In this document: positions 174 through 20,808 of the stretch, piece by piece
Layout of the letters: each line of letters opens with the position of its first letter
Numbering within the stretch: the stretch's first letter is position 1
Assembly (NCBI RefSeq): GCF_000007225.1
Contig: NC_003364.1
Location: 1,327,480 to 1,359,479 of the forward strand
Direction of reading: 5' to 3'
DNA: 32,000 nucleotides
From: Pyrobaculum aerophilum str. IM2
GTDB lineage: Archaea > Thermoproteota > Thermoprotei > Thermoproteales > Thermoproteaceae
Position numbers and translations under genes: made by a program
The notes under the pieces: model-generated
Seen by the model: the letters and a program-made list of their open reading frames with translations, nothing else
What the model was told of the DNA's origin: nothing
Databases searched by the model: none

Positions 174-460
174 ATCACAGATATTAAGCCACCTATAGGT
201 GCCTATAAAAGAATATTGAAATGTGGAGAGGGAATTTCTAGAAGGGTATATAGATTTGGCGGAGTATGCGAGAATTTACTATTTAACGAAGCGAAATCCC
301 CTACTCCGCATTCCTCCTGTACTGTCTTTATACCTTAGGCTCTTCTCCCGAAAATATCGCCGTATGGAGGCGCGTACGTGAGTGTAGAACGCCAATGTGG
401 CGTTCATCTGTGCCCGAAGTTTGGCGACGCGCGAAAACAGCGTCCTCGACGTAATTTCAT

Positions 461-470
461 TTTTAATATA
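461..470 (+). promoter_or_regulatory. TATA box for the acetyltransferase gene
   Basis: TTTTAATATA is centred about 23 nt upstream of the in-frame GTG at 489. The same spacing recurs at many genes in this window. Confidence 0.5.
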
Positions 471-488
471 GTGCTAGATAGAGGAAAT

Positions 489-989
489 GTGATACGCCGT
501 TGTACTGCTTCAGATGTGCCTTATATACTAGAAATTGAGCGCAAGTCGTTTAAGCCAGAGGATATTTACAGCGACGAGCTTTTGAAGTTTTTATGTGCCT
601 ACTGCAACGACTACTCCTATGTCTATGTATTAAACGGCACTGTGGCCGGCTATATTATTACATGCCACGAGGGCAACGCGGCGCACGTGATTTCAATAGC
701 AGTGGCGCCCGAATACCGCAGACGCGGCATAGGAAAGCGTCTGTTGTGCACAGCTCTGAGACTCATGGCTACTGGAAAAGTATCTGAAGTCTTCCTAGAG
801 GTTAGAGTTAGCAACGCGCCAGCGCTACATTTGTACAAATCAGCGGGGTTTGAAGTGGCAGAGTTCTTAAAGTCGTATTACAGCGATGGAGAAGACGGCT
901 ATAGGCTAGTGCTTAGAGACAGGGAAAAAGCCAGGAAATTCTGCGTAAGGGAGTTAGAAATGCAAGGAGGAATTCAGACTAGGGCGTAG
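489..989 (+). CDS. GNAT N-acetyltransferase, Ard1/RimI (protein N-terminal acetyltransferase) type
   Basis: Same frame as track ORF 378-989. It carries the acetyl-CoA binding motif ISIAVAPEYRRRGIGKRLL. I place the start at GTG 489 (VIRRCTASDVPYILEIERKSF...) because of the TATA box at 461-470 and because the 37 upstream codons are basic/Cys-rich and not GNAT-like. The resulting 166 aa fits the archaeal Ard1 size. Confidence 0.8.
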   Translation: MIRRCTASDVPYILEIERKSFKPEDIYSDELLKFLCAYCNDYSYVYVLNGTVAGYIITCHEGNAAHVISIAVAPEYRRRGIGKRLLCTALRLMATGKVSEVFLEVRVSNAPALHLYKSAGFEVAEFLKSYYSDGEDGYRLVLRDREKARKFCVRELEMQGGIQTRA

Positions 990-1074
990 AGCGATCAACG
1001 CGCTTTTGGTTGTGGGGGTTCAGCAACTAGTATTTTATCTGTAGTGAATATTAAGAGGAAAGCCTCTCATATAA

Positions 1075-3933
1075 GTGTACGCCTTCGTTGATCTGCCTTT
1101 TAGTCCCAGCGGCGTTACGCACTTAATACGCCGTCATAAGTCAGTGGGCTTCGAGAGAGAGTTGAAAGAGCTGTATGAGGTATTAAAAGCGGCCAGGGAG
1201 GGCAATAACAACGTATTGGCCGTCATAATAGCGCCGTATGGGTGGGGGAAGAGCGAGCTCTTAGACGAGTTAGAGGCGCTGGCCGAGAAGGAGGGGTTTG
1301 ACATATATAGAACGGCGCTATCCCTAGAGGGAGAGTTTACTATAGATATCGCGTTGAAAAAGCGGAATAAGCCTATGCTTGTGTTAATAGACGAAGCTGA
1401 TGAGCTCTCTCGCATTGTTGCAGTGCACAAACTGGGCGTGTTGGGCGATGAGAAATTTGTCAAAACAGTGCAAAAAGTCGCCACTTATATAAGAGCTTTG
1501 CTAGAGCCTAGATCTTATAAAAACATCCTGGGCGATCCCGAGAGATTTAATAAAATAGCTATAGTAGTGGCCCTAACGCCACAGTTGTATTATACTATTT
1601 TAAAAAATGTAGTACCAGATGTATTTGATATAACTAGTGGTAGAGTGTATAGAGAAATTATAATAGATACCAGATTTCCATTTTGGCAATTTGTCGAAGT
1701 TGTAAAACAGAGGCTGTTGGCCTATTCAGACACGGAGAGAGTTAGGGAGATAGAAAGAGGCAAGATAGACCTCCTCACTCCCTTTACATTATACGACTTG
1801 GCGGCAGTATACCACTTGGCTAAAAGGCGAGGCGAGGTGGCCCCCAGGCCTCTTCTAAAGCTCATGGCAAGGCTTTTCCAAATTAAGAAAGAAGGCGGCA
1901 GGCTGGCGCATTTACTAAGAGAGGAGGGGTTTAACCCAGACTTAGACGATGAAATTTTAGAAATAGTCTTCGCGGCTATACCAGTTGAACACAAAAAGCC
2001 ATATTTAAAAGAAGTATATCTATATAAAATACCATTTGAAGACAAGGAGGCATTAAACATAGCAAGGGAATATTTAGTAGTCAGGGGTAAAGAACTTGAC
2101 ATAAAAGATCCTAAAAACGTATCATATGAGCCGTATCTATACTATTCGCTTATAGAAGACGGCCGCCTTTTCGTCTACTTAATAGCGGAAGAGAATTTAG
2201 GCATCGAAAAGTACCTAGTTGGCAAGAGGTACGTAGTCGCTGAGGATGTGGCAAAGCTCGTTGGCTGGGAGGAGGCCCAATCCGTCGCCATAGTTGCGAA
2301 GGAGTTGAGCCAGAGGCTTGAGAGCCCAATAGCCCTGTTGGAAGAGGCAGAACGGGCGTTAGGCATAGAAGGCGTGAAGCTGAGGCGATGTTGCGGATAT
2401 GCCACATGGTCAAATAAAATGGGAGTGCGCGAAGCTTACCTCTTTCTCTACGTAGACCGGGAGGACGAGTTAAAGCGGGTTGTGGAAGAGCTGGCTGAAG
2501 TAGTGTCGCAAGGAGTTATAAATGGTTATGTCGTGGACTATTTAAACGTCCTCCTCGTAAGCCGGGTCTTGCTCACAGAGACTATTCAACAAGCCACATC
2601 GCCTTTAATGTCGGCGTATTGGAAACGCCTATTTCCAGATCCCGTCTCTAAGTTTACAACCCTTGAGATCTACGGCGCAGACAAGTATGAAAAACTGAAG
2701 CAACAGTTAATTAAATACGCAGTTGATAAGATCTTAAAGAGGGGGGAAAAGCCGCCTGAATTCGTAGACGCGGTGATGCTCGGGAGGGAAAGGGCGAGGG
2801 AGAATGTGCTCAAATACACACTAGCTTTGAAAAAAGGAAAGGAGAAAAAGGCTATAGCGCTTATCAAATTAGCTGAGGCCCTTGAAGAGGGGGGAGAGGT
2901 AGAGGGCCTTAAGGCCTACCGCGAGATAGAAGAAATATTACTAAACGCGTTTGAAGACTCTATTCACGAAAAGGAGTTTAAGTCATTAATAAACACGCTA
3001 TTCCCCGTTAACTTATGGAGGGAAATTAGAGAGGACGATGTAGTGGAGTTAATGAAGCTGAGAGGGCAAATAATCCCTATTGGCGACAGGCTTTACAAAT
3101 ATAGAGAGGATTTGGCAAAACGCTATATGTCAGAGGTCTTGCGCCAGTTAGAAGCCCTGAGAGAAGTGAAAGTAGAGAGGCAGACGCCGGCAGGCCCTAT
3201 AAAACTAGTAAGAGTATTAGACATTGGCGAGATAGAGGCCGCGTTCACGGACAAGAAAAGCTACGCAAAGGCTTTAAGAGAGGCGTTATTAAAGCTCCAG
3301 GTAATAAAGGAAAAATACAACGAAATAAAAACAGAGCTAGAGCGAGAGACAGAGGAGAAGGCGAGATTAATCAAAAGAATGTATTCTCTGCTGGAAAAGT
3401 TTCCCCAGAGGAGGAAATTCGTAAACCTCGAAAAATTAGATGAGGAGATTGTGAGGAGAGAAGAGGCCATTGCCCAAAAGACAGAAGAAGCCTTACATGT
3501 GTGGAGCGGAATTAAACACATGGCCAGCGCAGTTGGGTCGCGGCTAGACGTGGAGAGAGACTTGGCAGTATTATTAGAGTTGCCCGAGCCCTGGATAGCC
3601 GACTACGTGGCAGTGCTGAAAATTTACTCCTCAGAGCTCGAGAAAAAATACGCGCTATTCTTGGAGAAAGAAAAAGCGAAAAAAACCGCGTTAGAATGGC
3701 TGAAATCGAAATTCGGAGTAGAAAGCGAAGATATAGATACTGCGTTAACTACAGTGGCTACTAAGATTGGCGTGAATATAAAACTACTCGAGGCTGTTGC
3801 CAAGAGGGGGAAAGGAGCCGTTCTTGAAGTAGATCAGCTCGCCGTAGAGACCGGCCTCAAAAAAGAGGAGGTAGAGAGAGAGCTAGAAAGGCTTTACAAG
3901 GCTGGCGCAGTGGAGAAGAAATATGTCGCTTAA
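1075..3933 (+). CDS. Large uncharacterised P-loop NTPase (AAA_16/Arch_ATPase/ORC-like head) with a long helical/coiled-coil body and a C-terminal wHTH-like segment
   Basis: 952 aa. Walker A is APYGWGKS (aa 53-60), preceded by FERELKELYEVL as in archaeal STAND/ORC-like ATPases. Walker B is MLVLIDEADEL (aa 101-111). K/E/R-rich helical segments span roughly aa 560-860. The C-terminal tail EVDQLAVETGLKKEEVERELERLYKAGAVEKKYV looks like a winged helix. The start is GTG. Confidence 0.75.
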   Translation: MYAFVDLPFSPSGVTHLIRRHKSVGFERELKELYEVLKAAREGNNNVLAVIIAPYGWGKSELLDELEALAEKEGFDIYRTALSLEGEFTIDIALKKRNKPMLVLIDEADELSRIVAVHKLGVLGDEKFVKTVQKVATYIRALLEPRSYKNILGDPERFNKIAIVVALTPQLYYTILKNVVPDVFDITSGRVYREIIIDTRFPFWQFVEVVKQRLLAYSDTERVREIERGKIDLLTPFTLYDLAAVYHLAKRRGEVAPRPLLKLMARLFQIKKEGGRLAHLLREEGFNPDLDDEILEIVFAAIPVEHKKPYLKEVYLYKIPFEDKEALNIAREYLVVRGKELDIKDPKNVSYEPYLYYSLIEDGRLFVYLIAEENLGIEKYLVGKRYVVAEDVAKLVGWEEAQSVAIVAKELSQRLESPIALLEEAERALGIEGVKLRRCCGYATWSNKMGVREAYLFLYVDREDELKRVVEELAEVVSQGVINGYVVDYLNVLLVSRVLLTETIQQATSPLMSAYWKRLFPDPVSKFTTLEIYGADKYEKLKQQLIKYAVDKILKRGEKPPEFVDAVMLGRERARENVLKYTLALKKGKEKKAIALIKLAEALEEGGEVEGLKAYREIEEILLNAFEDSIHEKEFKSLINTLFPVNLWREIREDDVVELMKLRGQIIPIGDRLYKYREDLAKRYMSEVLRQLEALREVKVERQTPAGPIKLVRVLDIGEIEAAFTDKKSYAKALREALLKLQVIKEKYNEIKTELERETEEKARLIKRMYSLLEKFPQRRKFVNLEKLDEEIVRREEAIAQKTEEALHVWSGIKHMASAVGSRLDVERDLAVLLELPEPWIADYVAVLKIYSSELEKKYALFLEKEKAKKTALEWLKSKFGVESEDIDTALTTVATKIGVNIKLLEAVAKRGKGAVLEVDQLAVETGLKKEEVERELERLYKAGAVEKKYVA

Positions 3934-4438
3934 AGTTATAGTGCTCACAGAGGGCGTTGCTGTGAGGGAAGAGGGAGATGTGATTATTGACGCCGCTGGA
4001 CAGCCACAGTTTTTTGACGTGATAATCTTAAGCGGTAAGGAGTTGAAGTCCATTGTGGCAACAGGCGTTGTAAACATCGGCGTGCCTATCGGCATAGGGA
4101 AGTATACGAAAAAGCCCGTGGCTGCCGTGGTAGGCGATAAGGTATACATCAAGGGTATACCGTTGACGCTATATAAAGAGACGGGGATGTTGGAGAGGGA
4201 ATTGGCAGAGGCGTTAAAAAAGACTGGCAATGAGACAGAGGCGGTGTTAAAAAAACTTAAAGAAATCGTCATTTCAGAAAGGCGGCGTCATAAAAAGTCG
4301 CATACATTATCTATACTAAGCAAATATATATCGGGCGAAATAGACGAATTGCCCCCGCACTTGGCAGATATCGTGGGGAGCCTCGATAAGGACTCTCTTA
4401 GGAGCGTCTTTGAGAAATTAGTAGAGGATGTGTATTAA
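3923..4438 (+). CDS. Hypothetical protein, middle gene of the NTPase/NurA-like operon
   Basis: 171 aa. Its ATG overlaps the upstream gene by 11 nt. The N-terminal half looks beta-rich (VIVLTEGVAVREEGDVIIDAAG..., GVVNIGVPIGIGKY) and the C-terminal half is helical. I recognise no family motif. Confidence 0.6.
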   Translation: MSLKVIVLTEGVAVREEGDVIIDAAGQPQFFDVIILSGKELKSIVATGVVNIGVPIGIGKYTKKPVAAVVGDKVYIKGIPLTLYKETGMLERELAEALKKTGNETEAVLKKLKEIVISERRRHKKSHTLSILSKYISGEIDELPPHLADIVGSLDKDSLRSVFEKLVEDVY

Positions 4439-5184
4439 TGCGCGACCTTCTCTCACAGCTCCTGAGATTTGCTGAGCTGGAATATACTTTAAGGAAATTA
4501 GAGGTGCCTGAAGCGTTGAGAAAACTAGTCGTTCCGTGTGAAAGCGAAGACAAGCCAGACTACTACGCCGTTGATTCCGGCTATGTCGTGCAAAAAATTG
4601 GCTCCTTTGACGTTTTAATTCAGTCTATTGTCGCGGTGGGGAGAGAGGTTAGAAGGAGGTTTTTAATTAAAAAGGTGGTTGAGGATGTACATACTGAGGC
4701 TAGGAGGCGGGAGATACGTTTTGCCGAATCAATTGACGCAGATATCGTCCTCGTTGACGGGCCGCTAACGCCGTACGTGGGCGTTACAAGGGTAATTGGA
4801 GTTTCAAAAGATCCGAGGCTTGTTAGATACGGTCCTAGAATAGAAGACGACGCGACGAGAGATCTATTTGTAAGGCTCTCTAAGAGGTGGGGAGAAAGAG
4901 AGGTGGCAGGCGCGTTGCTGGCAAGCGTCCCTGCGGGATCCTACCTCTTGCCGGTTGACATAGGCGGTTTACGTGGCACTTTTTTCAAAAGCGAATGGGT
5001 GTTATATGTAGAATTTCCAAAAAATCTATCGGCAGATGCGCTGTGCGCCTTGTTTAAGAGATATCCAGTGAGGCTTAGAGTGGCGCACCACCTCGCCAAG
5101 ATCGGCAGGGAATATGTAAAAAGCGTGAGGGCAGTTCTGTCATCTCTTATGGGCGCTTCTCTACACTTTAGAGATATACTATGA
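4438..5184 (+). CDS. NurA-like nuclease (RNase H-fold 5'-3' nuclease family), paralogue outside a herA-mre11-rad50 context
   Basis: 248 aa. The start overlaps the previous stop as TAATG. Motifs appear in NurA order: YYAVDSGY (D46), EARRREIRFAE, IVLVDGPLTP (D107), RYPVRLRVAHHLAKI (H217/H218). The assignment is from remembered motif patterns and has not been searched. Confidence 0.55.
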   Translation: MRDLLSQLLRFAELEYTLRKLEVPEALRKLVVPCESEDKPDYYAVDSGYVVQKIGSFDVLIQSIVAVGREVRRRFLIKKVVEDVHTEARRREIRFAESIDADIVLVDGPLTPYVGVTRVIGVSKDPRLVRYGPRIEDDATRDLFVRLSKRWGEREVAGALLASVPAGSYLLPVDIGGLRGTFFKSEWVLYVEFPKNLSADALCALFKRYPVRLRVAHHLAKIGREYVKSVRAVLSSLMGASLHFRDIL

Positions 5185-5319
5185 CCCTTTGTAAATGTAA
5201 ACTAACTGTGCAAGCGCCATGTTAATACAATCGTCAAGCGAATCAAAGTTATATCTCTTGCATATTTTATATAGTTGTTCTAATTCTTCCTCCGAAAGAG
5301 GAATTATAACTTGTTCCAT
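5179..5319 (-). CDS. Small ribbon-helix-helix (CopG/Arc/MetJ-like) protein, unlisted 46-aa ORF
   Basis: My own translation gives MEQVIIPLSEEELEQLYKICKRYNFDSLDDCINMALAQLVYIYKGS. It shows the strand-helix-turn-helix pattern and size typical of RHH proteins. GTATATAATT lies about 25 nt upstream on the minus strand (about 5340-5350). The 3' end overlaps the NurA-like gene by 6 nt, tail to tail. Confidence 0.5.
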   Translation of the reverse strand: MEQVIIPLSEEELEQLYKICKRYNFDSLDDCINMALAQLVYIYKGS

Positions 5320-6586: not shown

Positions 6587-7056
6587 TCTCATTGGAAACT
6601 CTTCTGTATTTAATACAGGGGGAGAGAGTGCTTCTCATTCTGAAGAAAAGAGGGCTTGGCAAAGGGCTTTTCAACGGCGTTGGCGGGAAGGTAAAGCCAG
6701 GAGAGACGCCTGAGCAAGCCGTCGTAAGAGAGGCCGAGGAGGAAATAGGCGTGAAGCCTATACAGCTGAGCTGGAGGGGGTTATTAGAGTTCTGGAATTT
6801 AGAAAACGGACAGGTTGAGTCAATACATTACGTGCACGTCTATGTGTCTGAAAAATACGTGGGCGAGCCGCGGGAAAGCGACGAAGCGGCGCCCCTGTGG
6901 TTTGAAAAAGGGAATATCCCCTACGATAGAATGTGGGAAGATGATCGCCTCTGGTTACCTGTCGTGCTAGATGGGAAGAGGGTCTATGGTAAGTTTGAAT
7001 TTGAAGATTGGAAATTAAGAAAATGGATAGTTTACTTACTTCAACAAACTGGCTAA
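6583..7056 (+). CDS. Nudix hydrolase (MutT-like)
   Basis: The Nudix box GGKVKPGETPEQAVVREAEEEIGV matches GX5EX7REUXEEXGU. The GTG start overlaps the aminotransferase stop as GTGA. Confidence 0.85.
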   Translation: MISLETLLYLIQGERVLLILKKRGLGKGLFNGVGGKVKPGETPEQAVVREAEEEIGVKPIQLSWRGLLEFWNLENGQVESIHYVHVYVSEKYVGEPRESDEAAPLWFEKGNIPYDRMWEDDRLWLPVVLDGKRVYGKFEFEDWKLRKWIVYLLQQTG

Positions 7057-7599
7057 CTTCGCCTTTATTTCGCTTAGTTCACTCCTCAGCCTCTCGACTT
7101 CTTGTTTCAACCTGGCGTTCTCCTCGGCTAGTTCTTTACACTCTTTTGGAGCTGTTGCCTGTTGGCAGCGATCGCTTCTAACCCAATAGTAAAGCTCAGT
7201 TTTATCTTTTCGCCAGCGCAACTCCCCCGTGTTTATGTCCAGTTCTATTTCCGTAATTATCATAAATATATCGCCTTTATCCAAGCCGTATTTAGGCGCC
7301 TGTTCGTTGAAAAACCACTCTTTAATTGCGTCAAACATTTCCTTACTGGATTTCTTAAACTCATCTGAGTCTCTGATTTTGTTGAAAAGCTCTTCGCCCT
7401 GCGGGCCGAATTTCCCCCTCAGAGATCCAGCCAGTGCGCCAAAGAGCAGTCTGAAGAAGTCAGGGCGCCCGCCCGCCCCGTATCTCCCGAAGAGCCTGCC
7501 TGCAGACGTCTTTCCAGTATTCCAGCGAATTACGAGAACTTGCCTCCCCTCCCTCTCTTCAAGGTGTGCCCTTTCCACAGTCCGTTCCTCTTCCGCCAT
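7036..7599 (-). CDS. Hypothetical protein with Gly/Arg-rich N-terminal region and C-terminal coiled coil
   Basis: 187-aa ORF. The C-terminus ELAEENARLKQEVERLRSELSEIKAKLASLL is heptad-like. Its 3' end overlaps the Nudix gene by 21 nt in convergent orientation. I recognise no family. Confidence 0.55.
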   Translation of the reverse strand: MAEEERTVERAHLEEREGRQVLVIRWNTGKTSAGRLFGRYGAGGRPDFFRLLFGALAGSLRGKFGPQGEELFNKIRDSDEFKKSSKEMFDAIKEWFFNEQAPKYGLDKGDIFMIITEIELDINTGELRWRKDKTELYYWVRSDRCQQATAPKECKELAEENARLKQEVERLRSELSEIKAKLASLLK

Positions 7600-12144: not shown

Positions 12145-13701
12145 TTATGAGCTTCGTTGTCTGGTCGGCTTTTCCGCCCTCCACTTATCTACGGCGTCTC
12201 TCAGCGCCTTAAAGCGCCGCAGGGCGTCTAGCTGTTCGGCTAGGAGCCATACTTCGCCCCTCTTAGCCTTGCCTGTCAGCGCCTTTAACACGGCGGCCTC
12301 CATATCGTCCTTAACCCTTGGCCGTGCTGTTTCGTAGTAGTACGTGACTGTTGTTTTACCTCTCTTTTCCCGCTTCTCCGCCCAGCGCCACTCCACCTTC
12401 AGTTGCCTCCTCTCCCCTCCAGCCTCATACTCCGCGATTATGCGCAGGCGGCAACCCTCCCCAGCGCATTGGTTTACCACCTTGCCGTTTTCCACAAATT
12501 CATACCGCAGATCTACAACGCGGGCTATTATATTGCCCTTATCGTCGCGCACCTCCAGCGGCAGATCTATTGCCCCCTCCTCCCTCGCCGGCGTTAGAAC
12601 CTCTATCAGCTTTTTCACCGCGTCATCGCCGTGGCGGCGCCTCAACACGTCCTCAAGATCCCTAATAAAGCGTTCTGCCTCCACATCGCCATTCAGCGCC
12701 ATGCGCTGTATTTCCCTAAGGCCGTCGTAAGTGATGCGGATTATGTACTGTCCGTTCCACTTCGCCGCGAAGTGCTTTCCCTCCTCCAGCCCTGCCGCCT
12801 TCAAGGCGTTTACAACTGTGTCTTTGTGGTCTTTTTTAACGCGGATTTCGCGCCTTTTGCCGTAAACAGCGTAGTGCTCTTTTTCCTTCAGCCCGCTAAG
12901 GGCCTCTAACGCCTTGGCATAAAATTCGTCCGCAACGCGAATTTCGTAACCGCCGCGCTCTGTTACCGTAAAATGCTCGCCCTCCTTCAAACCCTTGGCC
13001 TTTAATGCGTTTAAAGCGGCGTTTTTAGAGGCCTCGCTACGCGGGTTGTATACTATCATTATGCTCTTCATCCCCGTCCCGTAATAGACCGAAAACTCCG
13101 CACCGGCGAGCTTCACAACGTTGGGGCCTGCGGCTACGTCCTTAACTAGCTGTTTATACCTCTCCTCGCCGATCAGCCCCCTGCCGTACAGCTCGTCCAC
13201 AAAGCCCCTCACCGCGTTCAGCCAGCCGTCGTGACGAATTGCCGTAATGCCGTCAGTGGTGAGCCACACTACCCATCCCTCACCTACGCGCTTAACCTCA
13301 GCCTCGCCGCCTAGGGCCCTAATAATAGAGGCCAGACGCTCGGCGTTTTCGCGAGAGCCGCGGAATTCGGCTAGTAGATATCTGCCAGTCCATTTCATGT
13401 TGATGTGTGCCACCACCTCCCCGCCCAACTTAAAGCGGATGACTGTCTTCGGGTAACTTCCGCTTGCATCCAACGGCCCTCTCTCCACTGTGACGTTCTT
13501 GTAGACGTAGTCATCGGCCATTGTAATAATTTCGTTTAGCTTTTTGAAAAACCTTTCGTTTCTCACGTCATATGCCCAGTCAACGCCGTGTTTCTTTTTA
13601 ATCGCCTCGCGTGTAACAACTTTAAACGAGTCAGCGAACTCGGTCAGGGTATCTCCAAGCTCGTACAGTGTGGACAACGCCGGCATTACCGCTTTCAGCA
13701 A
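12145..13701 (-). CDS. Repeat-containing Thermoproteales protein, possibly PaREP2 family
   Basis: The track ORF starts at TTG 13701. ATG at 13686 (MPALSTLYELG...) is more likely, with AAAGTTAAAC about 22 nt upstream. At least three or four copies of a ~35-40 aa unit are present (AALNALKAKGLKEGEHFTVTERGGYEIRV / VVNALKAAGLEEGKHFAAKWNGQYIIRI / LASIIRALGGEAEVKRVGEGWVVWL). The family name comes from memory of Pyrobaculum annotations only. Confidence 0.6.
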   Translation of the reverse strand: MLKAVMPALSTLYELGDTLTEFADSFKVVTREAIKKKHGVDWAYDVRNERFFKKLNEIITMADDYVYKNVTVERGPLDASGSYPKTVIRFKLGGEVVAHINMKWTGRYLLAEFRGSRENAERLASIIRALGGEAEVKRVGEGWVVWLTTDGITAIRHDGWLNAVRGFVDELYGRGLIGEERYKQLVKDVAAGPNVVKLAGAEFSVYYGTGMKSIMIVYNPRSEASKNAALNALKAKGLKEGEHFTVTERGGYEIRVADEFYAKALEALSGLKEKEHYAVYGKRREIRVKKDHKDTVVNALKAAGLEEGKHFAAKWNGQYIIRITYDGLREIQRMALNGDVEAERFIRDLEDVLRRRHGDDAVKKLIEVLTPAREEGAIDLPLEVRDDKGNIIARVVDLRYEFVENGKVVNQCAGEGCRLRIIAEYEAGGERRQLKVEWRWAEKREKRGKTTVTYYYETARPRVKDDMEAAVLKALTGKAKRGEVWLLAEQLDALRRFKALRDAVDKWRAEKPTRQRSS

Positions 13702-14122: not shown

Positions 14123-15883
14123 ATGCGTCGCGCGGAGACGCTTGAGGAGATTGTGAAGCGGAGGTTGCTGTACTGGCCCTCATCGGAAATATACGGCGGC
14201 GTGGGCGGGTTTTATGATTACGGCCCTCTCGGCGTACAGCTAAGGCGTAATATAGTGGAGAAGTGGCGTAAGGTGTTTGTACTCCCCTATCAAGATCTCA
14301 TAATTGAAGTGGAGACGCCTATTATCATGCCGGAGCCCGTCTTTAAGGCCTCTGGACATCTCGACCATTTTACTGACTATTTAGTAACGTGTACAAAATG
14401 TGGCCGTAAATACAGAGCCGATCACTTAGTAGAGGAGGAGTTGGCGAAGAGGGGGTTGAAAATCTCAACTGAGGGGATGTCCGCCTCAGATTTAGAGCGC
14501 CTTATTTCTGAACACAAAATCGTCTGTCCCCACTGCGGCGGCCCCTTGGGCAGGGTGGAGACTTTTAATCTGCTCTTCAAAACCACCATAGGGCCTTATA
14601 GCGAAAACGCAGGATATTTGAGGCCGGAGACCGCCCAGGGTATGTTCGTCGCTTTCCCCCGGCTAGCGGAGTATGTGGGCCGTCGCCACCCCTTCGGCGT
14701 GGCGCAGATTGGCCGGGTTGCGCGTAATGAGATATCGCCTAGAGGGGGTTTGATGAGGTTAAGAGAGTTTACGCAAATGGAGATAGAGCTGTTTTTCGAC
14801 CCGCAGAACCCCAAGTGTCCCTACTTCGCCGAGGTGGAGAGTTTTGAAATCCCAATAGTGCCTGAAGAGTTTGTGGCCAAGGGCCAGACGGAACCCGTTT
14901 ATTTAACGGCTAGGGAAGTTGTGGAGAGGGGCCACGCTAATGAGTGGATGGCGTTTTTCATGGCGTTAGCCGCGAAGTTTTTAAAAGAGCTAGGCGTGCC
15001 TATTGAAAGGCAGAAGTTCCTCGGAAAACTGCCCCACGAGAGGGCACATTACTCCGCCAAGTCTTACGACCAAATGGTGCTTACAGAGCGCTTTGGGTGG
15101 GTAGAGGTTTCCGGCCACGCCTACCGCACGGATTACGACCTCTCCGGTCACAGCAAATTCAGCAGCCGCGAGATGTATTTAGAAAGGCGCCTATCCACGC
15201 CTAAGGAAGTGGAAGTAGTACGGCTTTACCCCAACCCTAATGCTATTAGGGAGAGATACGGCGATAAAATAGGCGAGGTGATAAAGGCAATTAAAGAACA
15301 CGAGGGAAGAGTAATAGAGGCGTTTAATAGGGGAATGTCCGAAGTGGCGTTAGGTGAGTACGTCATATCACGTGACATGGTTTACATAAAACTAGAAAAA
15401 CGCAAGACGGACTTGGAAAAGTTCATACCGCACGTGGTGGAGCCCTCCTTCGGGCTTGACAGAATTATGTATGTAGTTCTAGAATCCGCAGTGGTTGAGG
15501 AGGAGGGACGCGTGTATTTACGCCTGCCCCCCGACATAGCGCCAGTTAAGGCGTGTATATTGCCTATTGTAAAGAGGGCGGATTACGTGGAGATAGGCCG
15601 CACTTTGTGGAGGAGCTTGGCGAGACAGGGCTTTGTGGTGTTATACGAAGACGAGGGCACTATAGGCAGTAGGTACGCCTCATGTGATGAGATAGGAACG
15701 CCGCTCGCCGTGACAATCGACGAGAAAACGCCCGTTGACGGCACTGTCACTATCCGCGACCGCGACACTAAGAGGCAAGTCAGGGTTAAATTGGGCGATG
15801 TAGTTACTTTCGTGTCCATGGTCGCCGGCGGCGCCTCTTTTGACGACGCCGCCAGGGCCTTAGGCGCAGCGCCAGTGCAGTAG
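14123..15883 (+). CDS. glyS: Glycine--tRNA ligase (archaeal/eukaryotic alpha2 type)
   Basis: 586 aa. The N-terminus ...SSEIYGGVGGFYDYGPLGVQLRRNI is characteristic of class II GlyRS. The body shows class II motifs and there is a C-terminal anticodon-binding domain. Confidence 0.9.
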   Translation: MRRAETLEEIVKRRLLYWPSSEIYGGVGGFYDYGPLGVQLRRNIVEKWRKVFVLPYQDLIIEVETPIIMPEPVFKASGHLDHFTDYLVTCTKCGRKYRADHLVEEELAKRGLKISTEGMSASDLERLISEHKIVCPHCGGPLGRVETFNLLFKTTIGPYSENAGYLRPETAQGMFVAFPRLAEYVGRRHPFGVAQIGRVARNEISPRGGLMRLREFTQMEIELFFDPQNPKCPYFAEVESFEIPIVPEEFVAKGQTEPVYLTAREVVERGHANEWMAFFMALAAKFLKELGVPIERQKFLGKLPHERAHYSAKSYDQMVLTERFGWVEVSGHAYRTDYDLSGHSKFSSREMYLERRLSTPKEVEVVRLYPNPNAIRERYGDKIGEVIKAIKEHEGRVIEAFNRGMSEVALGEYVISRDMVYIKLEKRKTDLEKFIPHVVEPSFGLDRIMYVVLESAVVEEEGRVYLRLPPDIAPVKACILPIVKRADYVEIGRTLWRSLARQGFVVLYEDEGTIGSRYASCDEIGTPLAVTIDEKTPVDGTVTIRDRDTKRQVRVKLGDVVTFVSMVAGGASFDDAARALGAAPVQ

Positions 15884-15939: not shown

Positions 15940-16290
15940 ATGGCAGAGGGCAAAGACGTGGAACGCGGCCGTAAGTTATTAATACCGCCGTTTTTAACGC
16001 CGCAACAAGAGAAGAAGGAGCAGAGAAAAACAGAGCGTAGAGTGAAAATAAAGGCTTCTGAAGACGTTGAGGACGGCGTGGCGAAATTGCCGCCAGATAT
16101 ACACGACGCCTTAGATAAGCCGGCGGAGGTAGAAATCATCGCTCCCGGCGGCTCTTCTCACGAAAAGAAGAAGGTTTTTAGAGTCGTAGTTAGCGACAAG
16201 ATCCCTAGCGGCGAGATATACGTCTCTCCCAACGAGTTGAGGGCTCTTGGCGTTGCGGAAAATACTGTAGTGACTGTAAGAAAGAAATGA
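15940..16290 (+). CDS. Hypothetical basic protein with AbrB/VatN-N-like beta-barrel C-terminal half
   Basis: 116 aa. It has a Lys/Arg/Glu-rich N-terminus, then [24 protein letters not shown] ... [26 protein letters not shown], which resembles swapped-hairpin/double-psi barrel domains. Its stop overlaps the endA start as ATGA. Confidence 0.55.
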
Positions 16291-16838
16291 TCGGATATTT
16301 ACGGGGGCTTGCCGTAATTGTTGAAGACGTAGAATTCGCCAGGAGGCTGTATAAAGAGGGGTTTTACGGCAGATTTCTGGGCTATGACAAAGTTAAGAGA
16401 GATGAGGTGGAGAAAATTAACGCCCCGTTAATACTTGGCCTCTACGAGGCGCTTTATTTAGCAGAGAAAGGCAGGCTTAAGGTAATGGGGGAAGATGGGA
16501 GGGAAGTTGCCCCCGAGGAGCTGGCGGCTTTAGGCAGGGAGAGGATGAGGAATTTTGACGAGATATATAAAATCTATAAGTATTTCAGAGATTTGGGCTA
16601 CGTGGTGAAAAGCGGTTTGAAATTCGGCGCCTTATTTTCGGTGTACGAAAAAGGGCCGGGGATAGATCACGCTCCCATGGTGGTGGTATTCCTAGAGCCA
16701 GATAAGGGGATATCGGCCACAGATATCACCCGCGGCGGGCGGTTGAGCCATAGCGTGAGGAAGACCTGGACCTTGGCTACTGTTTTGAGGCAAACTGGAG
16801 AGGTGGTGCTTCTGGGATTTGGTTGGGCACGGCTCTAG
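16287..16838 (+). CDS. endA: tRNA-splicing (intron) endonuclease, catalytic subunit
   Basis: 183 aa. It carries the C-terminal catalytic-domain motif [26 protein letters not shown] and the downstream ...RLSHSVRK. Confidence 0.85.
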
Positions 16839-18333: not shown

Positions 18334-19997
<1,664 letters not shown>

Positions 19998-20010
19998 TGA
20001 ATAGAGAGTT

Positions 20011-20601
20011 GTGGAATTTCCAAAAGTCCTAGTGATAAGGCACTTTTCCGAAGTCCTCGGCATGAAGTACTTGGGGGAGAGCGGCGACGTCTTGTGGTTT
20101 GAAGACGGGCTTAATAAAGTGGCGGTTGGCGTATACTTCTCAGAGCTTTACGAAGAGGCAGAGCTCTACAAACGCCTAGCCGCTCTTGTAAATTTAAACG
20201 CCGCCAAGATCTATTTAGCAATTTTACAAGAGGCCTCGGCGTTTATAGATCCAAGGTTTTTGAAAAACCAAGGCATAGGCCTAGTTGTGGTAGATCCCAC
20301 AAAGGGCGCTCAGGGCGTGGATGTGAGAATCTACGCAAAAGCCCGTCAACAACCTGTGCCGGCTGTTAACACTGAAAAACTTATTGAGGCCATTAAAGCC
20401 GCTGTGTTGGAGCAAGTAAATAATCAAATAAAGGCACTTGAAAGTTCAATTTTTGAAAAATTAAAGAGATATATAGATCAACGTCTAGAGGAGTACAAAG
20501 GCGCGATGTCTGGCAAACCGCCACCGCTGCCGCCACCGCCCGGCGGGTCTTCAGTTGTGGAAAACGAATGGGTCAGATACTTAAGGAGCAGGGGGAAATA
20601 G
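20011..20601 (+). CDS. rkd-2: Arcadin-2-like protein (crenactin-binding regulator)
   Basis: 196 aa, starting 13 nt after crenactin. It has a proline-rich linker PPPLPPPPGG followed by the tail SSVVENEWVRYLRSRGK, consistent with the published C-terminal crenactin-binding peptide. Confidence 0.7.
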   Translation: MEFPKVLVIRHFSEVLGMKYLGESGDVLWFEDGLNKVAVGVYFSELYEEAELYKRLAALVNLNAAKIYLAILQEASAFIDPRFLKNQGIGLVVVDPTKGAQGVDVRIYAKARQQPVPAVNTEKLIEAIKAAVLEQVNNQIKALESSIFEKLKRYIDQRLEEYKGAMSGKPPPLPPPPGGSSVVENEWVRYLRSRGK

Positions 20602-20608
20602 GGAAGAT

Positions 20609-20620
20609 AGTATATATTTT
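20609..20620 (+). promoter_or_regulatory. Internal TATA box ahead of the 56-aa ORF/arcadin-4
   Basis: AGTATATATTTT is centred about 24 nt upstream of GTG 20638. Confidence 0.45.
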
Positions 20621-20637
20621 CAGATTTATAAACAGGC

Positions 20638-20808
20638 GTGGATATAATCATTGAGGAAGTCAGAAGGGCGTTTGGAAATACCGACGAGGGAAAAGTGGCA
20701 GAACGCCTTATTCTTGCATATAAGGAAGGCGGCGCCCGCGCCGCTAGGGCTGTAATTAGAGAATACCTTCAGAGACTGGGAGTAGATGTGGCGGATAGAG
20801 AGGATTGA
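20638..20808 (+). CDS. Unlisted 56-aa helical ORF in the arcadin-3 position
   Basis: My own translation from GTG 20638 gives VDIIIEEVRRAFGNTDEGKVAERLILAYKEGGARAARAVIREYLQRLGVDVADRED. It ends at TGA 20806-20808, 23 nt inside the arcadin-4 ORF. It is below the track length cut-off. Confidence 0.45.
   Translation: MDIIIEEVRRAFGNTDEGKVAERLILAYKEGGARAARAVIREYLQRLGVDVADRED

What the first reader, a model, noticed from the sequence alone, without database searches (positions are those of the whole stretch)
1075..5184. Uncharacterised coupled operon: giant coiled-coil P-loop NTPase + 171-aa protein + NurA-like nuclease
Seen in the sequence: three same-strand ORFs are fused by overlaps (11 nt at 3923-3933 and TAATG at 4436-4440), which implies one transcript and stoichiometric synthesis. 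ORF1 (952 aa) has an STAND/ORC/Arch_ATPase-style head, with FERELKEL, Walker A APYGWGKS and Walker B LVLIDEADEL. This is followed by about 600 aa of helical, partly heptad-like sequence and a wHTH-like tail. ORF3 has the motif order I associate with NurA: DSG...E...VDGPL...YPxxLxxAHH. Established knowledge: NurA normally works with the FtsK-type hexameric helicase HerA, usually beside mre11-rad50. None of these genes is present here. Inference: this is a NurA-type nuclease recruited by a different class of NTPase. The logic (sensor/motor ATPase with coiled coil plus a separate nuclease) resembles ATPase-nuclease defence or DNA-processing modules such as Lamassu or Septu. Composition is patchy: my hand count gives about 33% G+C over 1501-1680, against roughly half elsewhere, which is compatible with acquired DNA. 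A ParA-like gene and a small RHH gene flank the operon.
Basis: partly seen in the sequence, partly recalled or inferred. Interest (0 to 1): 0.8.

Follow-up and report, generated by a model that had tools for sequence, protein, structure and literature searches.

The report
Orc-like ATPase plus NurA nuclease operon
A chromosomal operon conserved across the heat-loving archaeal order Thermoproteales couples a NurA-type DNA nuclease to a previously undescribed Orc/Cdc6-like ATPase and a small orphan protein instead of its usual helicase partner HerA; it looks like an unstudied DNA-processing machine, not a mobile defence island.

Summary
The three overlapping same-strand ORFs are real: 1075-3933, 3923-4438 and 4438-5184. 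They correspond to PAE2247-2249 of Pyrobaculum aerophilum. ORF3 is a true NurA-domain nuclease (Pfam 72 bits, cut-off 21) and keeps its catalytic residues. ORF1 is not a giant coiled coil. It has an AAA+ head of the ORC/Cdc6-RuvB-MuB type, mixed alpha/beta middle domains, about 165 aa of long helices and a winged-helix-like tail. Its family has only 43 hits among 1.84 billion representative proteins. ORF2 is an orphan. The trio keeps the same order in 31 of the 33 Thermoproteales genome-scan loci with sequence downstream. In Pyrobaculum and Thermoproteus it sits in a conserved housekeeping neighbourhood (GNAT, ThermoDBP, radical SAM). ORF1 has no relatives in the viral, phage or plasmid collections. 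It is therefore vertically inherited, and the low-GC patch is not evidence of acquisition. Two things are new. A conserved 46-aa convergent gene (5179-5319) travels with the module. In three low-GC archaeal contigs, distant relatives of the ATPase sit in a five-gene operon that ends NurA-HerA. My best reading (about 0.5) is that the AAA+ protein is an ATP-dependent DNA-binding recruiter or activator of NurA in chromosomal DNA repair. No paper found describes it.

The parts
1047..1054 (+). AATATTAA, a candidate archaeal TATA box about 24 nt upstream of the GTG start; this would fit a leaderless transcript
   Evidence: Read from the sequence. This is inference only; no tool here models archaeal promoters.
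1075..3933 (+). ORF1 (equivalent to PAE2247), 952 aa. An AAA+ ATPase of the ORC/Cdc6-RuvB-MuB structural type, with a long multi-domain C-terminal extension.
   Evidence: ORF found. AF2 model has pLDDT 85. Foldseek against the PDB gives ORC/Cdc6, MuB and RuvB at E 3e-5 to 1e-3 with probability 1.0. Pfam matches are all below threshold: AAA_16, nSTAND5. The family is tiny: 43 hits among 1.84e9 representatives.
1093..1119 (+). N-terminal peptide motif LPFSPSGVT (residues 7-15), ahead of the ATPase domain; a possible partner-docking motif
   Evidence: P8, P11 and G13 are invariant in 34 homologues. The same PFxPxGV motif occurs in the distant HerA-linked clade. The function is inferred.
1231..1254 (+). 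Walker A, APYGWGKS (K59)
   Evidence: Y55, G56, G58 and K59 are invariant.
1375..1404 (+). Walker B, LVLIDEADEL (D106 E107), followed by invariant R113
   Evidence: D106, E107, D109, E110 and R113 are invariant.
1843..1848 (+). P257-R258, a sensor-2-like arginine in the helical lid (PRPLLKL)
   Evidence: Invariant and shared with the distant clade. The assignment as sensor 2 is inferred from its position in the AAA+ lid.
3253..3714 (+). Long-helix (coiled-coil-like) region, residues 727-880: three helices of 49, 31 and 40 aa
   Evidence: AF2 secondary structure. Profile search of PDB sequences hits only designed coiled coils and chemoreceptor helices here.
3733..3900 (+). C-terminal winged-helix-like domain, residues 887-942
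   Evidence: Weak but recurrent matches across homologues: MarR_2, TrmB, HTH_5 and ArsR. The profile also hits the CdvB winged-helix domain 2xvc (E 0.004) and an Lrs14-like protein.
3923..3933 (+). 11-nt overlap of the ORF1 stop with the ORF2 start
3923..4438 (+). ORF2 (equivalent to PAE2248), 171 aa. An orphan protein with a beta-rich N-terminal half (GxGKYT motif) and a helical C-terminal half (ERRR motif); putative adaptor.
   Evidence: No match in Pfam, NCBIfam, PADLOC or PHROGs. AF2 pLDDT is 62, with only residues 100-170 confident. Foldseek finds nothing. It always lies between the ATPase and NurA. A leave-one-out profile still finds the homologue in the deep-branching L003 lineage (E 7e-5).
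4436..4440 (+). TAATG stop/start overlap between ORF2 and ORF3
4438..5184 (+). ORF3 (equivalent to PAE2249), 248 aa. A minimal NurA-family RNase H-fold nuclease. Likely catalytic residues are D46 (nt 4573-4575), E92, D107 (nt 4756-4758) and H217, with K124 and Y209 also conserved.
   Evidence: Pfam NurA PF09376, E 5.4e-20, 72.4 bits against a cut-off of 21. D46, E92, D107, K124 and Y209 are invariant. The family profile hits S. solfataricus NurA 2ygk (E 2.6e-4), aligning D46 with D58 and the DG of the D107 motif with that of LMDGSL. Reference residues are from PMC3326311.
5179..5319 (-). A conserved 46-aa gene with a beta-alpha-alpha (RHH-like) pattern. It converges on ORF3 and overlaps its 3' end by 6 nt. 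Probably a fourth component or regulator of the module.
   Evidence: Found. Present immediately downstream in 20 related loci. It stays beside NurA where the operon is split (L008) and beside the ATPase where NurA and ORF2 are absent (L030, L031). Identity within Pyrobaculum is 61-87%. Pfam RHH_1 reaches only E 0.034, in one member.

Best explanation
This is a chromosomally fixed, vertically inherited DNA-processing module of the Thermoproteales. ORF3 is the catalytic subunit. It is a minimal NurA-type RNase H-fold nuclease, and by analogy with NurA it is probably a dimer that cuts ssDNA or unwound DNA. ORF1 is an ATP-dependent switch of the ORC/Cdc6-like AAA+ type. It has winged-helix-like DNA-binding modules and a long-helix arm. 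I propose that it recognises a DNA substrate (an end, fork or other structure) and then recruits or licenses the nuclease. ORF2 is translationally coupled to both neighbours and would bridge them. In this picture ORF1 acts as other AAA+ proteins of this structural class do, as a loader or matchmaker and not as a translocating motor. In distant relatives the same ATPase-X-NurA cassette is followed by herA. The ancestral machine was therefore probably NurA-HerA plus an AAA+ loader or sensor. In Thermoproteales a HerA paralogue encoded elsewhere may be used in trans, or the motor may have been dispensed with. The conserved 46-aa convergent gene probably regulates the module or belongs to it. Shown: the gene structure, NurA membership with catalytic residues, the AAA+ fold with intact ATPase motifs, co-conservation, synteny, and HerA linkage in distant relatives. 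Inferred: physical complex formation, the loader or activator role, the substrate, and the repair function.
For: ORF3 is NurA: Pfam 72 bits against a cut-off of 21, conserved D/E/D/K/Y residues, and a profile hit to 2ygk. ORF1 has an AAA+ head of ORC/Cdc6, MuB and RuvB type. Its Walker A, Walker B and sensor-2-like arginine are invariant. The ATPase-ORF2-NurA order on one strand holds in 31 of the 33 genome-scan loci with sequence downstream of the ATPase gene, across Pyrobaculum, Thermoproteus, Vulcanisaeta, Caldivirga and Thermocladium. The start/stop overlaps are real. The flanks are syntenic housekeeping genes, and identities fall in step with them: ORF1 58-71% against ThermoDBP 67-84% in Pyrobaculum, and 41-46% against 59-62% in Thermoproteus. 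ORF1 has no relatives in IMG/VR, phage or plasmid collections. Three independent low-GC contigs carry [250 aa]-ATPase-X-NurA-HerA. The ORF3 profile hits the operon NurA there but not the second NurA on the same contig. Canonical NurA depends on its partner for activity (PMC3326311). Thermoproteus places the module directly beside the ssDNA-binding protein ThermoDBP.
Against: ORF1 reaches no Pfam gathering threshold, and the Foldseek E-values are modest. About 550 aa of ORF1 and all of ORF2 have no recognisable relatives, so the mechanism rests on the head domain and the nuclease. The X proteins of the HerA-linked clade are not detectably homologous to ORF2. One clade (L030, L031) has the ATPase without NurA or ORF2 beside it. 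One genome has the operon split (L008). Conserved synteny does not strictly exclude an anciently fixed defence function.
Confidence: 0.5

Rival explanations
1. It is an anciently fixed anti-virus or anti-plasmid defence system. ORF1 would be a STAND-like sensor NTPase (nucleotide-binding domain, helical lid, winged helix, large C-terminal sensor region). It would detect an invader cue and then release a NurA nuclease effector, with ORF2 as adaptor or inhibitor.
For: Several family members give sub-threshold matches to AAA_16, nSTAND_NTPase5, NACHT and BrxC_BrxD. Foldseek also lists SAMD9, a plant NLR and a phage nSTAND3 protein. Another NurA-HerA paralogue in Pyrobaculum is CRISPR-associated (PMC3396285). 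Some distant loci lie near HEPN/NTase, HNH or Csx1 genes. ORF3 and ORF1 evolve faster than neighbouring housekeeping genes.
Against: PADLOC gives no significant hit. In every locus examined it occurs once and in the same place, between housekeeping genes, in Pyrobaculum and Thermoproteus. It is present in all five cultured genera, and no presence/absence polymorphism was seen. ORF1 has no relatives on viral, phage or plasmid DNA. The best structural matches are ORC/Cdc6, MuB and RuvB, not STAND proteins.
Confidence: 0.2
2. ORF1 and ORF2 are an accessory loader or regulator for a HerA helicase encoded elsewhere in the genome. Pyrobaculum has at least three herA paralogues. The working enzyme would then still be a HerA-NurA translocase-nuclease, with the AAA+ protein only targeting or loading it.
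For: The five-gene operons in L042, L043 and L045 end in NurA-HerA. ORC/Cdc6-type AAA+ proteins are classically loaders of ring helicases (established knowledge). Bernick et al. list three NurA-HerA pairs in every Pyrobaculum genome except P. islandicum, which lacks the CRISPR-associated pair. Canonical NurA needs HerA for efficient activity.
Against: No herA lies within about 7 kb of the ATPase gene (less where a contig ends) in any of the 41 Thermoproteales loci, or anywhere in the 32-kb window. The Pyrobaculum and Thermoproteus NurA is much shorter (248-260 aa) than the HerA-linked ones (370-398 aa), with several segments missing. Each known herA there already has its own adjacent nurA.
Confidence: 0.2
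3. The gene linkage is operonic convenience only. ORF1 would be a DNA-binding AAA+ regulator or chromosome-organisation protein with no functional tie to the nuclease.
For: ORF1 occurs without adjacent NurA or ORF2 in the L030/L031 clade and is separated from them in L008. It has winged-helix-like domains and a long-helix arm.
Against: Adjacency, order and overlapping or near-abutting gene boundaries persist down to about 27% identity, and into lineages outside the cultured genera. The association with NurA even survives in the distant low-GC clade. Such persistence is not expected for unrelated functions.
Confidence: 0.07

Closest known systems
Archaeal HerA-NurA DNA end-resection complex (S. 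solfataricus, P. furiosus, T. kodakarensis)
   Same: The nuclease belongs to the same Pfam family. It has an RNase H-like fold and keeps the D/E/D catalytic residues and the conserved K and Y. It is operon-coupled to an NTPase. In distant relatives a true HerA is encoded directly after the NurA gene.
   Different: In Thermoproteales there is no herA, mre11 or rad50 in the operon or nearby. The linked NTPase is an AAA+ protein of ORC/Cdc6 type, not a FtsK/HerA-type RecA-fold hexameric translocase. The NurA is much shorter (248 aa against about 330-450). An orphan 171-aa protein and a 46-aa convergent gene are added. It is a fifth NurA paralogue in P. aerophilum, beyond the four families listed by Bernick et al. 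2012.
Orc1/Cdc6, MuB, RuvB and related AAA+ ATPases (DNA-bound loaders and matchmakers)
   Same: These are the best structural matches of the ORF1 head (Foldseek probability 1.0). ORF1 has Walker A, Walker B, a lid with a sensor-2-like arginine, and winged-helix-like elements after the lid.
   Different: There is no sequence-level membership; all Pfam matches fall below their cut-offs. ORF1 carries about 650 further residues: alpha/beta domains, a long-helix arm and a second winged helix. It is encoded with a nuclease and not with a helicase or transposase.
STAND/AAA_16-type sensor NTPases of defence systems (Avs, nSTAND families) and BREX BrxC/BrxD
   Same: The overall layout is similar: an N-terminal NTPase, then helical and winged-helix parts, then a large C-terminal region. 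Profile matches exist but are weak. A separate nuclease could act as effector.
   Different: Every match is below threshold. The genomic behaviour is that of a core chromosomal gene. PADLOC does not recognise it.
Lamassu (LmuB SMC-like ATPase plus effector) and Septu (PtuA ABC ATPase plus PtuB HNH)
   Same: Only the general logic of an ATPase with helical arms working with a separate nuclease.
   Different: In ORF1, Walker A and Walker B lie about 45 residues apart within one AAA+ domain. They are not split by a coiled coil as in SMC, Rad50 and ABC ATPases. The only PADLOC LmuB match (E 0.011) lies in the helical region. The nuclease is NurA, not HNH or Cap4.
CRISPR-associated nurA-csm6-herA cluster of Pyrobaculum (Bernick et al. 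2012, PMC3396285)
   Same: It is another lineage-wide NurA paralogue in the same genomes, showing that NurA has been re-used repeatedly in Thermoproteales.
   Different: That cluster keeps a HerA partner, includes csm6 and sits next to CRISPR arrays. The present operon has none of these features.

Membership tests
NurA nuclease family (Pfam PF09376) | Profile match above the curated threshold | tested here: met
   ORF3 scores E 5.4e-20 and 72.4 bits against a cut-off of 21, covering positions 2-254 of the 254-position profile. The family profile hits S. solfataricus NurA 2ygk at E 2.6e-4.
NurA nuclease family (Pfam PF09376) | Catalytic D, E, D residues plus the conserved K and Y (Sso NurA D58, E116, D133, K202, Y298) | tested here: met
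   D46, E92, D107, K124 and Y209 are invariant or nearly invariant in the ORF3 family. D46 aligns with D58, and the DG of the VDGPL motif (D107) with that of LMDGSL. The correspondence of E, K and Y is by order and motif, not by structure. Reference residues come from PMC3326311.
NurA nuclease family (Pfam PF09376) | Toroidal dimer with 5'-3' exo- and endonuclease activity | not testable with these tools
   This needs biochemistry or a multimer structure model.
HerA-NurA end-resection system | A HerA (DUF87, HAS-barrel) hexameric ATPase encoded with NurA | tested here: not met
   A HerA profile finds nothing in the 32-kb window or in the 41 Thermoproteales loci. The feature is met only in the distant low-GC relatives L042, L043 and L045.
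HerA-NurA end-resection system | Clustering with mre11 and rad50 | tested here: not met
   Pfam scans of the ORFs of 110 aa or more in the window show no Mre11. The only SMC_N/Rad50-like protein (20786-23170) belongs to the crenactin/arcadin cluster 15 kb away.
AAA+ ATPases, ORC/Cdc6-type | AAA+ alpha/beta core plus helical lid, with Walker A, Walker B and a sensor-2 arginine | tested here: met
   The confident AF2 model matches Cdc6, Orc4, Orc1, MuB and RuvB (Foldseek E 3e-5 to 1e-3, probability 1.0). K59, D106, E107 and R258 are invariant.
AAA+ ATPases, ORC/Cdc6-type | Sequence-profile membership (Pfam Cdc6/AAA families above threshold), or the initiator-specific motif | tested here: not met
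   Matches are all below threshold: AAA_16 at 17.7 bits against 32.6, and nSTAND5 at 13.8 bits against 34. The initiator-specific motif could not be assessed.
STAND NTPases | Profile match to a STAND family, and a NOD architecture with a GxP-type motif | tested here: inconclusive
   Across members the nSTAND5, NACHT and AAA_16 matches all fall below their cut-offs. The structural hits to SAMD9 and an NLR are weaker than those to ORC.
SMC/Rad50-like coiled-coil ABC ATPases (Lamassu LmuB, Septu PtuA) | Walker A and Walker B in N- and C-terminal half-domains separated by a long antiparallel coiled coil, plus an ABC signature motif | tested here: not met
   Walker A (residues 53-60) and Walker B (residues 101-110) are adjacent within one AAA+ domain. 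The long helices span only residues 721-885. PADLOC LmuB reaches E 0.011, in the helical region only.
Mobile defence island or horizontally acquired cassette | Variable genomic location, patchy distribution, and presence on mobile elements | tested here: not met
   Synteny with GNAT, ThermoDBP and radical SAM genes is conserved in Pyrobaculum and Thermoproteus. ORF1 has no relatives in IMG/VR, phage or plasmid collections. GC and GC3 are close to those of neighbouring genes.

The most novel reading that the evidence does not exclude
An ORC/Cdc6-like AAA+ protein, together with an orphan adaptor, has taken over from the HerA ring translocase as the ATP-dependent partner of a NurA nuclease. This would create a previously unknown, lineage-wide essential DNA-end or DNA-structure processing machine in Thermoproteales. 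That order has also replaced canonical SSB with ThermoDBP, whose gene lies next to this operon. It would be the first case of an initiator- or loader-type AAA+ ATPase directly licensing an RNase H-fold nuclease.
Probability: 0.25. Interest if true: 0.75.

Novelty: new variant of a known kind. Interest (0 to 1): 0.58.

Why it matters
NurA has been treated as an obligate partner of HerA in archaeal double-strand-break resection. Here an order-wide conserved NurA paralogue is hard-wired to a different ATPase class and to two small proteins with no known relatives. The ATPase family is so narrow (43 hits among 1.84 billion representative proteins) that it has escaped family databases. If the proteins form a complex, this would define a new way of controlling an RNase H-fold nuclease, through a loader or switch AAA+ protein in place of a translocase. 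It would also add a missing piece to DNA repair in Thermoproteales, whose genome-maintenance toolkit is already known to be unusual. The HerA-containing five-gene relatives offer a natural evolutionary series for asking how a motor is gained or lost from a nuclease machine.

Tried and rejected
2. The ORF2 AF2 model is poor in its N-terminal half (pLDDT below 50), and Foldseek gave nothing (best E 0.29).
3. I tested whether ORF2 is a HerA N-terminal (HAS-barrel)-like domain. hhalign of the Pyrobaculum ORF2 alignment against three HerA N-termini scored 30.7 (P 2.4e-4), above all 120 shuffled controls. The signal did not replicate with five other ORF2 subfamily alignments (scores 12-16), so I keep it as a lead only.
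4. hhalign of ORF2 against the positional equivalent 'X' of the low-GC clade showed no similarity.
5. PADLOC, PHROGs and NCBIfam gave nothing significant for any of the three proteins.
6. Literature searches found no paper describing the operon. I searched the locus tags and UniProt ids, NurA with Pyrobaculum, with defence and with Thermoproteales, ThermoDBP, and Cmi2. Paytubi et al. 2012 is not held.
8. Rejected: SMC/Rad50-like ATPase (motif topology), acquired island (synteny), and a ParA neighbour (none present).
9. The frameshifted copies in the JCM draft assemblies (L032, L034, L036, L039, L040) are probably sequencing errors and not pseudogenes, because the breaks differ between two V. 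distributa strains.

Full report
OBSERVATION. The ORF listing shows three + strand ORFs at exactly the stated coordinates: 1075-3933 (952 aa, GTG start), 3923-4438 (171 aa) and 4438-5184 (248 aa). The 11-nt overlap (…AAATATGTCGCTTAA) and the TAATG overlap are both present. The quoted motifs and residue numbers (K59, D46, D107) are correct. The hand-counted G+C of 33% over 1501-1680 is exact at 33.3%. Only 0.9% of 180-nt windows in the 32-kb window are that low. Exact-sequence look-up places the three proteins in the same 90% clusters as PAE2247, PAE2248 and PAE2249 of Pyrobaculum aerophilum IM2. NCBI names the first two 'hypothetical' and the third 'DNA double-strand break repair nuclease NurA'.

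Two parts of the observation fail. First, ORF1 is not about 600 aa of heptad-like helix. The AlphaFold2 model (34-sequence alignment, mean pLDDT 85) has the following layout:
- an alpha/beta P-loop domain with a helical lid (about residues 27-300);
- mixed alpha/beta domains (residues 301-535 are 38% helix and 32% strand);
- a further mixed region to about residue 720;
- a single all-helical segment, residues 721-885, with helices of 49, 31 and 40 residues;
- a small C-terminal helical domain.
Second, no ParA-like gene flanks the operon. The upstream gene is a GNAT acetyltransferase. The downstream genes are an aminotransferase, a NUDIX hydrolase and, on the other strand, the Thermoproteales ssDNA-binding protein ThermoDBP.

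WHAT THE PROTEINS ARE. ORF3 is a NurA-domain protein. It matches PF09376 at E 5.4e-20 and 72.4 bits, against a gathering score of 21, over essentially the whole profile. I aligned 14 family members, including ones as low as 20% identical. D46, S47, E92, D107, G108, K124, Y131, E153, Y190, E192, Y209 and P210 are invariant. The profile of this alignment hits S. solfataricus NurA (2ygk) at E 2.6e-4. That alignment puts D46 on the catalytic D58, and the DG of the VDGPL motif (D107) on that of LMDGSL. Blackwood et al. give D58, E116 and D133 as catalytic, plus conserved K202 and Y298 (PMC3326311). The ORF3 family has a plausible counterpart for each. A fourth acidic or histidine position is H217 in Pyrobaculum and Asp in deeper members. 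The nuclease therefore looks catalytically competent.

ORF1 reaches no curated family threshold. AAA_16, nSTAND_NTPase5 and BrxC_BrxD are all sub-threshold, both here and in seven divergent homologues. PADLOC, NCBIfam and PHROGs give nothing significant. The confident model, however, matches AAA+ ATPases of the ORC/Cdc6, MuB and RuvB type in the PDB. These include Drosophila Cdc6 and Orc4, S. solfataricus Orc1 paralogues, MuB filaments and RuvB, at E 3e-5 to 1e-3 and probability 1.0. Weaker hits go to SAMD9 and a plant NLR. BFVD gives only generic AAA and nSTAND3 viral proteins. The following are invariant across 34 homologues and shared with the most distant relatives:
- Walker A (Y55, G56, G58, K59);
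- Walker B (D106, E107);
- R113, R140, E144, T168, R190;
- the lid motif P257-R258 (PRxLLKL, sensor-2-like).
A conserved N-terminal peptide, PF(S/N)PxGVT, precedes the ATPase domain in both clades. The C-terminal approximately 60 residues repeatedly give weak winged-helix matches: MarR_2, TrmB, HTH_5, the CdvB winged-helix domain 2xvc and an Lrs14-like protein.

The ORF1 family is extremely narrow. An exhaustive HMMER search of 1.84 billion representative proteins with the family profile returns only 43 proteins at E ≤ 1e-3.

ORF2 has no family, no fold match and only a half-confident model.

CONSERVATION AND CONTEXT. ORF1 homologues come from Pyrobaculum (58-75% identity), Thermoproteus (41-46%), Vulcanisaeta, Caldivirga and Thermocladium (27-33%, about 1100-1140 aa), and a few Thermoproteota MAGs. 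I built profiles of the three proteins and searched all six-frame ORFs of 41 related loci. The order ATPase, then ORF2-like, then NurA-like, on one strand with overlapping or near-abutting boundaries, holds in 31 of the 33 genome-scan loci (L005-L041) that have sequence downstream, and also in the four loci fetched by protein look-up (L001-L004). There are two kinds of exception:
- L008, where a rearrangement has moved ORF2-NurA 3.6 kb away onto the other strand, with housekeeping genes in between;
- the divergent clade L030/L031, where the ATPase is followed by Liv-type ABC transporter genes.

The locus is not an island. In every Pyrobaculum and Thermoproteus locus with enough flanking sequence the module sits between the same GNAT gene and the ThermoDBP-radical SAM pair. 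The identities of ORF1, ORF2 and ORF3 fall in step with those of the neighbours:
- Pyrobaculum: ORF1 58-71%, ORF2 50-63%, ORF3 47-62%, against ThermoDBP 67-84%;
- Thermoproteus: ORF1 41-46% and ORF3 35-36%, against ThermoDBP 59-62%.
Gene-level GC (45-48%) and GC3 are close to those of neighbouring genes. The 33% GC stretch encodes the K/I/Y/N-rich and most conserved part of the ATPase core. No relative of ORF1 is found in IMG/VR, the phage collection or the plasmid collection. The 'acquired DNA' inference is not supported.

TWO NEW ELEMENTS.

(a) The 46-aa gene. The gene at 5179-5319 (MEQVIIPLSEEELEQLYKICKRYNFDSLDDCINMALAQLVYIYKGS) converges on ORF3 and overlaps its end by 6 nt. A homologue lies in the same convergent position in 20 other loci, at 61-87% identity within Pyrobaculum. 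It stays next to NurA in the rearranged L008. It stays next to the ATPase in L030 and L031, where NurA and ORF2 are missing. It is absent from the Vulcanisaeta, Caldivirga and Thermocladium loci. Its beta-alpha-alpha pattern suggests a ribbon-helix-helix fold, but Pfam support is only E 0.034 in one member. I regard it as a probable fourth component or regulator.

(b) Distant relatives with HerA. The two most distant full-length relatives of ORF1 are P0134 (1225 aa, E 6e-13) and P0135 (1218 aa, E 8e-10). They lie on low-GC (28-33%) metagenomic contigs that I take to be archaeal, although their taxon could not be assigned. Their operon reads: [~250-aa protein] - ATPase - [240-306-aa protein X] - NurA (Pfam 8e-18 and 4e-11) - HerA (DUF87 at 2.6e-41 and 2.4e-35, with HerA_C and a sub-threshold HAS-barrel match). 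A metagenome scan found a third such contig with the same five genes. The ORF3 profile recognises the operon NurA on these contigs (1e-9 to 5e-17) but not a second NurA-HerA pair on the same contig. This supports orthology of the ATPase-linked NurAs. The ~250-aa upstream protein also precedes the ATPase in the deep-branching 'Thermoprotei archaeon' locus L003, which lacks HerA. By contrast, a HerA profile finds nothing in any Thermoproteales locus or in the whole 32-kb window.

Bernick et al. list four NurA paralogue families in Pyrobaculum: PAE0122 with HerA PAE0128 (CRISPR-associated), PAE2154/2155, PAE2902/2903 (canonical), and PAE2998 (alone) (PMC3396285). PAE2249 is not among them, so this is a fifth, overlooked paralogue.

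INTERPRETATION. The evidence fits a chromosomal DNA-processing module. Its catalytic subunit is a minimal NurA. Its ATP-dependent subunit is an ORC/Cdc6-like AAA+ protein with DNA-binding winged-helix-like domains. AAA+ proteins of this structural class (Orc1/Cdc6, MuB; established knowledge) act as ATP-dependent DNA-bound switches that recruit or load another enzyme, and do not translocate along DNA. Canonical NurA is nearly inactive without its partner. I therefore propose that ORF1 recognises a DNA substrate and licenses the NurA nuclease, with the translationally coupled ORF2 as the bridge. The HerA-containing relatives suggest that the ancestral assembly was NurA-HerA plus this AAA+ loader or sensor. 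In Thermoproteales, HerA is either supplied in trans or has been lost from the machine. The NurA there is 110-150 residues shorter than the HerA-linked ones, which is compatible with loss but does not prove it. The neighbouring ThermoDBP gene and the strict vertical inheritance favour a genome-maintenance role over defence. My confidence in this model is about 0.5. Complex formation, the substrate and the biological role are all inferred.

RIVALS. An anciently fixed defence system with a STAND-like sensor and a nuclease effector remains possible (about 0.2). The sub-threshold STAND and BrxC/D signals, the faster evolution of ORF1 and ORF3, and the known CRISPR association of another NurA paralogue point that way. 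The fixed core location, the single copy in every locus examined, the absence from mobile elements and the lack of any PADLOC match argue against it. A HerA-in-trans loader model (about 0.2) is a variant of the main model. Coincidental linkage (below 0.1) is hard to reconcile with adjacency that persists down to about 27% identity and into the low-GC clade.

COMPARISON WITH KNOWN SYSTEMS AND NOVELTY. ORF3 is a member of the NurA family. The module is not a member of the HerA-NurA(-Mre11-Rad50) system, because the defining HerA partner was tested and not found locally. ORF1 has an ORC/Cdc6-type AAA+ fold but belongs to no curated sequence family. It is not an SMC, Rad50 or ABC ATPase, so the Lamassu and Septu analogy fails on motif topology. 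No paper in the searchable library mentions these genes or this architecture. I classify it as a new variant of a known kind: a NurA-based nuclease module with a novel partner set. It has moderate-to-high interest for archaeal DNA repair and for the evolution of ATPase-nuclease machines.

Noticed in passing
window 18334-23170 (+): The Thermoproteales actin-cytoskeleton cluster lies about 13 kb downstream. It comprises arcadin-1 (18334-18675, Pfam Arcadin_1 E 1.7e-48), crenactin (18699-19997, Actin), an unassigned 196-aa ORF (20011-20601) and an SMC_N/Rad50-like 794-aa protein (20786-23170, probably arcadin-4). This is the only coiled-coil ABC ATPase in the window, and it is unrelated to the operon.
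   Followed up: partly
window 5179-5319 (-): A 46-aa RHH-like gene converges on the NurA gene and overlaps it. It is conserved in 20 related loci and stays with the module through rearrangements. It is included in the report as a probable fourth component, but its function is unknown.
   Followed up: yes
window 378-989 (+), compared with L001 and L004-L021: The GNAT acetyltransferase upstream of ORF1 is on the same strand as the operon in this window. In every other Pyrobaculum and Thermoproteus locus examined it is on the opposite strand (divergent), which suggests a small local inversion in this strain or species.
   Followed up: no
window 12145-13701 (-): A full-length PaRep2b protein (Pfam E 2e-271), a Pyrobaculum-specific repeated gene family. 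At 0.645 it has the highest GC3 of the genes checked.
   Followed up: no
window 7036-7599 (-): ThermoDBP (ssDBP_DBD, E 2.3e-60), the non-canonical ssDNA-binding protein of Thermoproteales. In Thermoproteus it lies directly next to the 46-aa gene and the NurA gene. In Pyrobaculum an aminotransferase and a NUDIX gene are inserted between them.
   Followed up: partly
L042 1-2394 (-) and L045 1-2508 (-): The low-GC contigs that carry the five-gene ATPase-X-NurA-HerA operon also carry a second, separate NurA-HerA pair about 3-5 kb upstream on the opposite strand. There are therefore two NurA-HerA systems side by side.
   Followed up: partly
L003 5196-6014; L042 4429-5181; L043 6257-7000; L045 7205-7981: A ~250-aa protein with conserved SLPQ and TKGxDVRR motifs (weak MCM8 winged-helix match, E 4.5e-4) directly precedes the ATPase gene in the deep-branching lineages. 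It is absent upstream of the Pyrobaculum operon.
   Followed up: partly
L032, L034, L036, L039, L040: In the JCM draft assemblies of Vulcanisaeta and Thermocladium the ATPase gene is broken into 3-7 ORFs. The break points differ between two V. distributa strains, so these are probably sequencing or assembly errors and not pseudogenes.
   Followed up: no
window 16287-16838 (+) and 14123-15883 (+): A tRNA-splicing endonuclease and a class II aminoacyl-tRNA synthetase confirm that the window is ordinary core chromosome.
   Followed up: no
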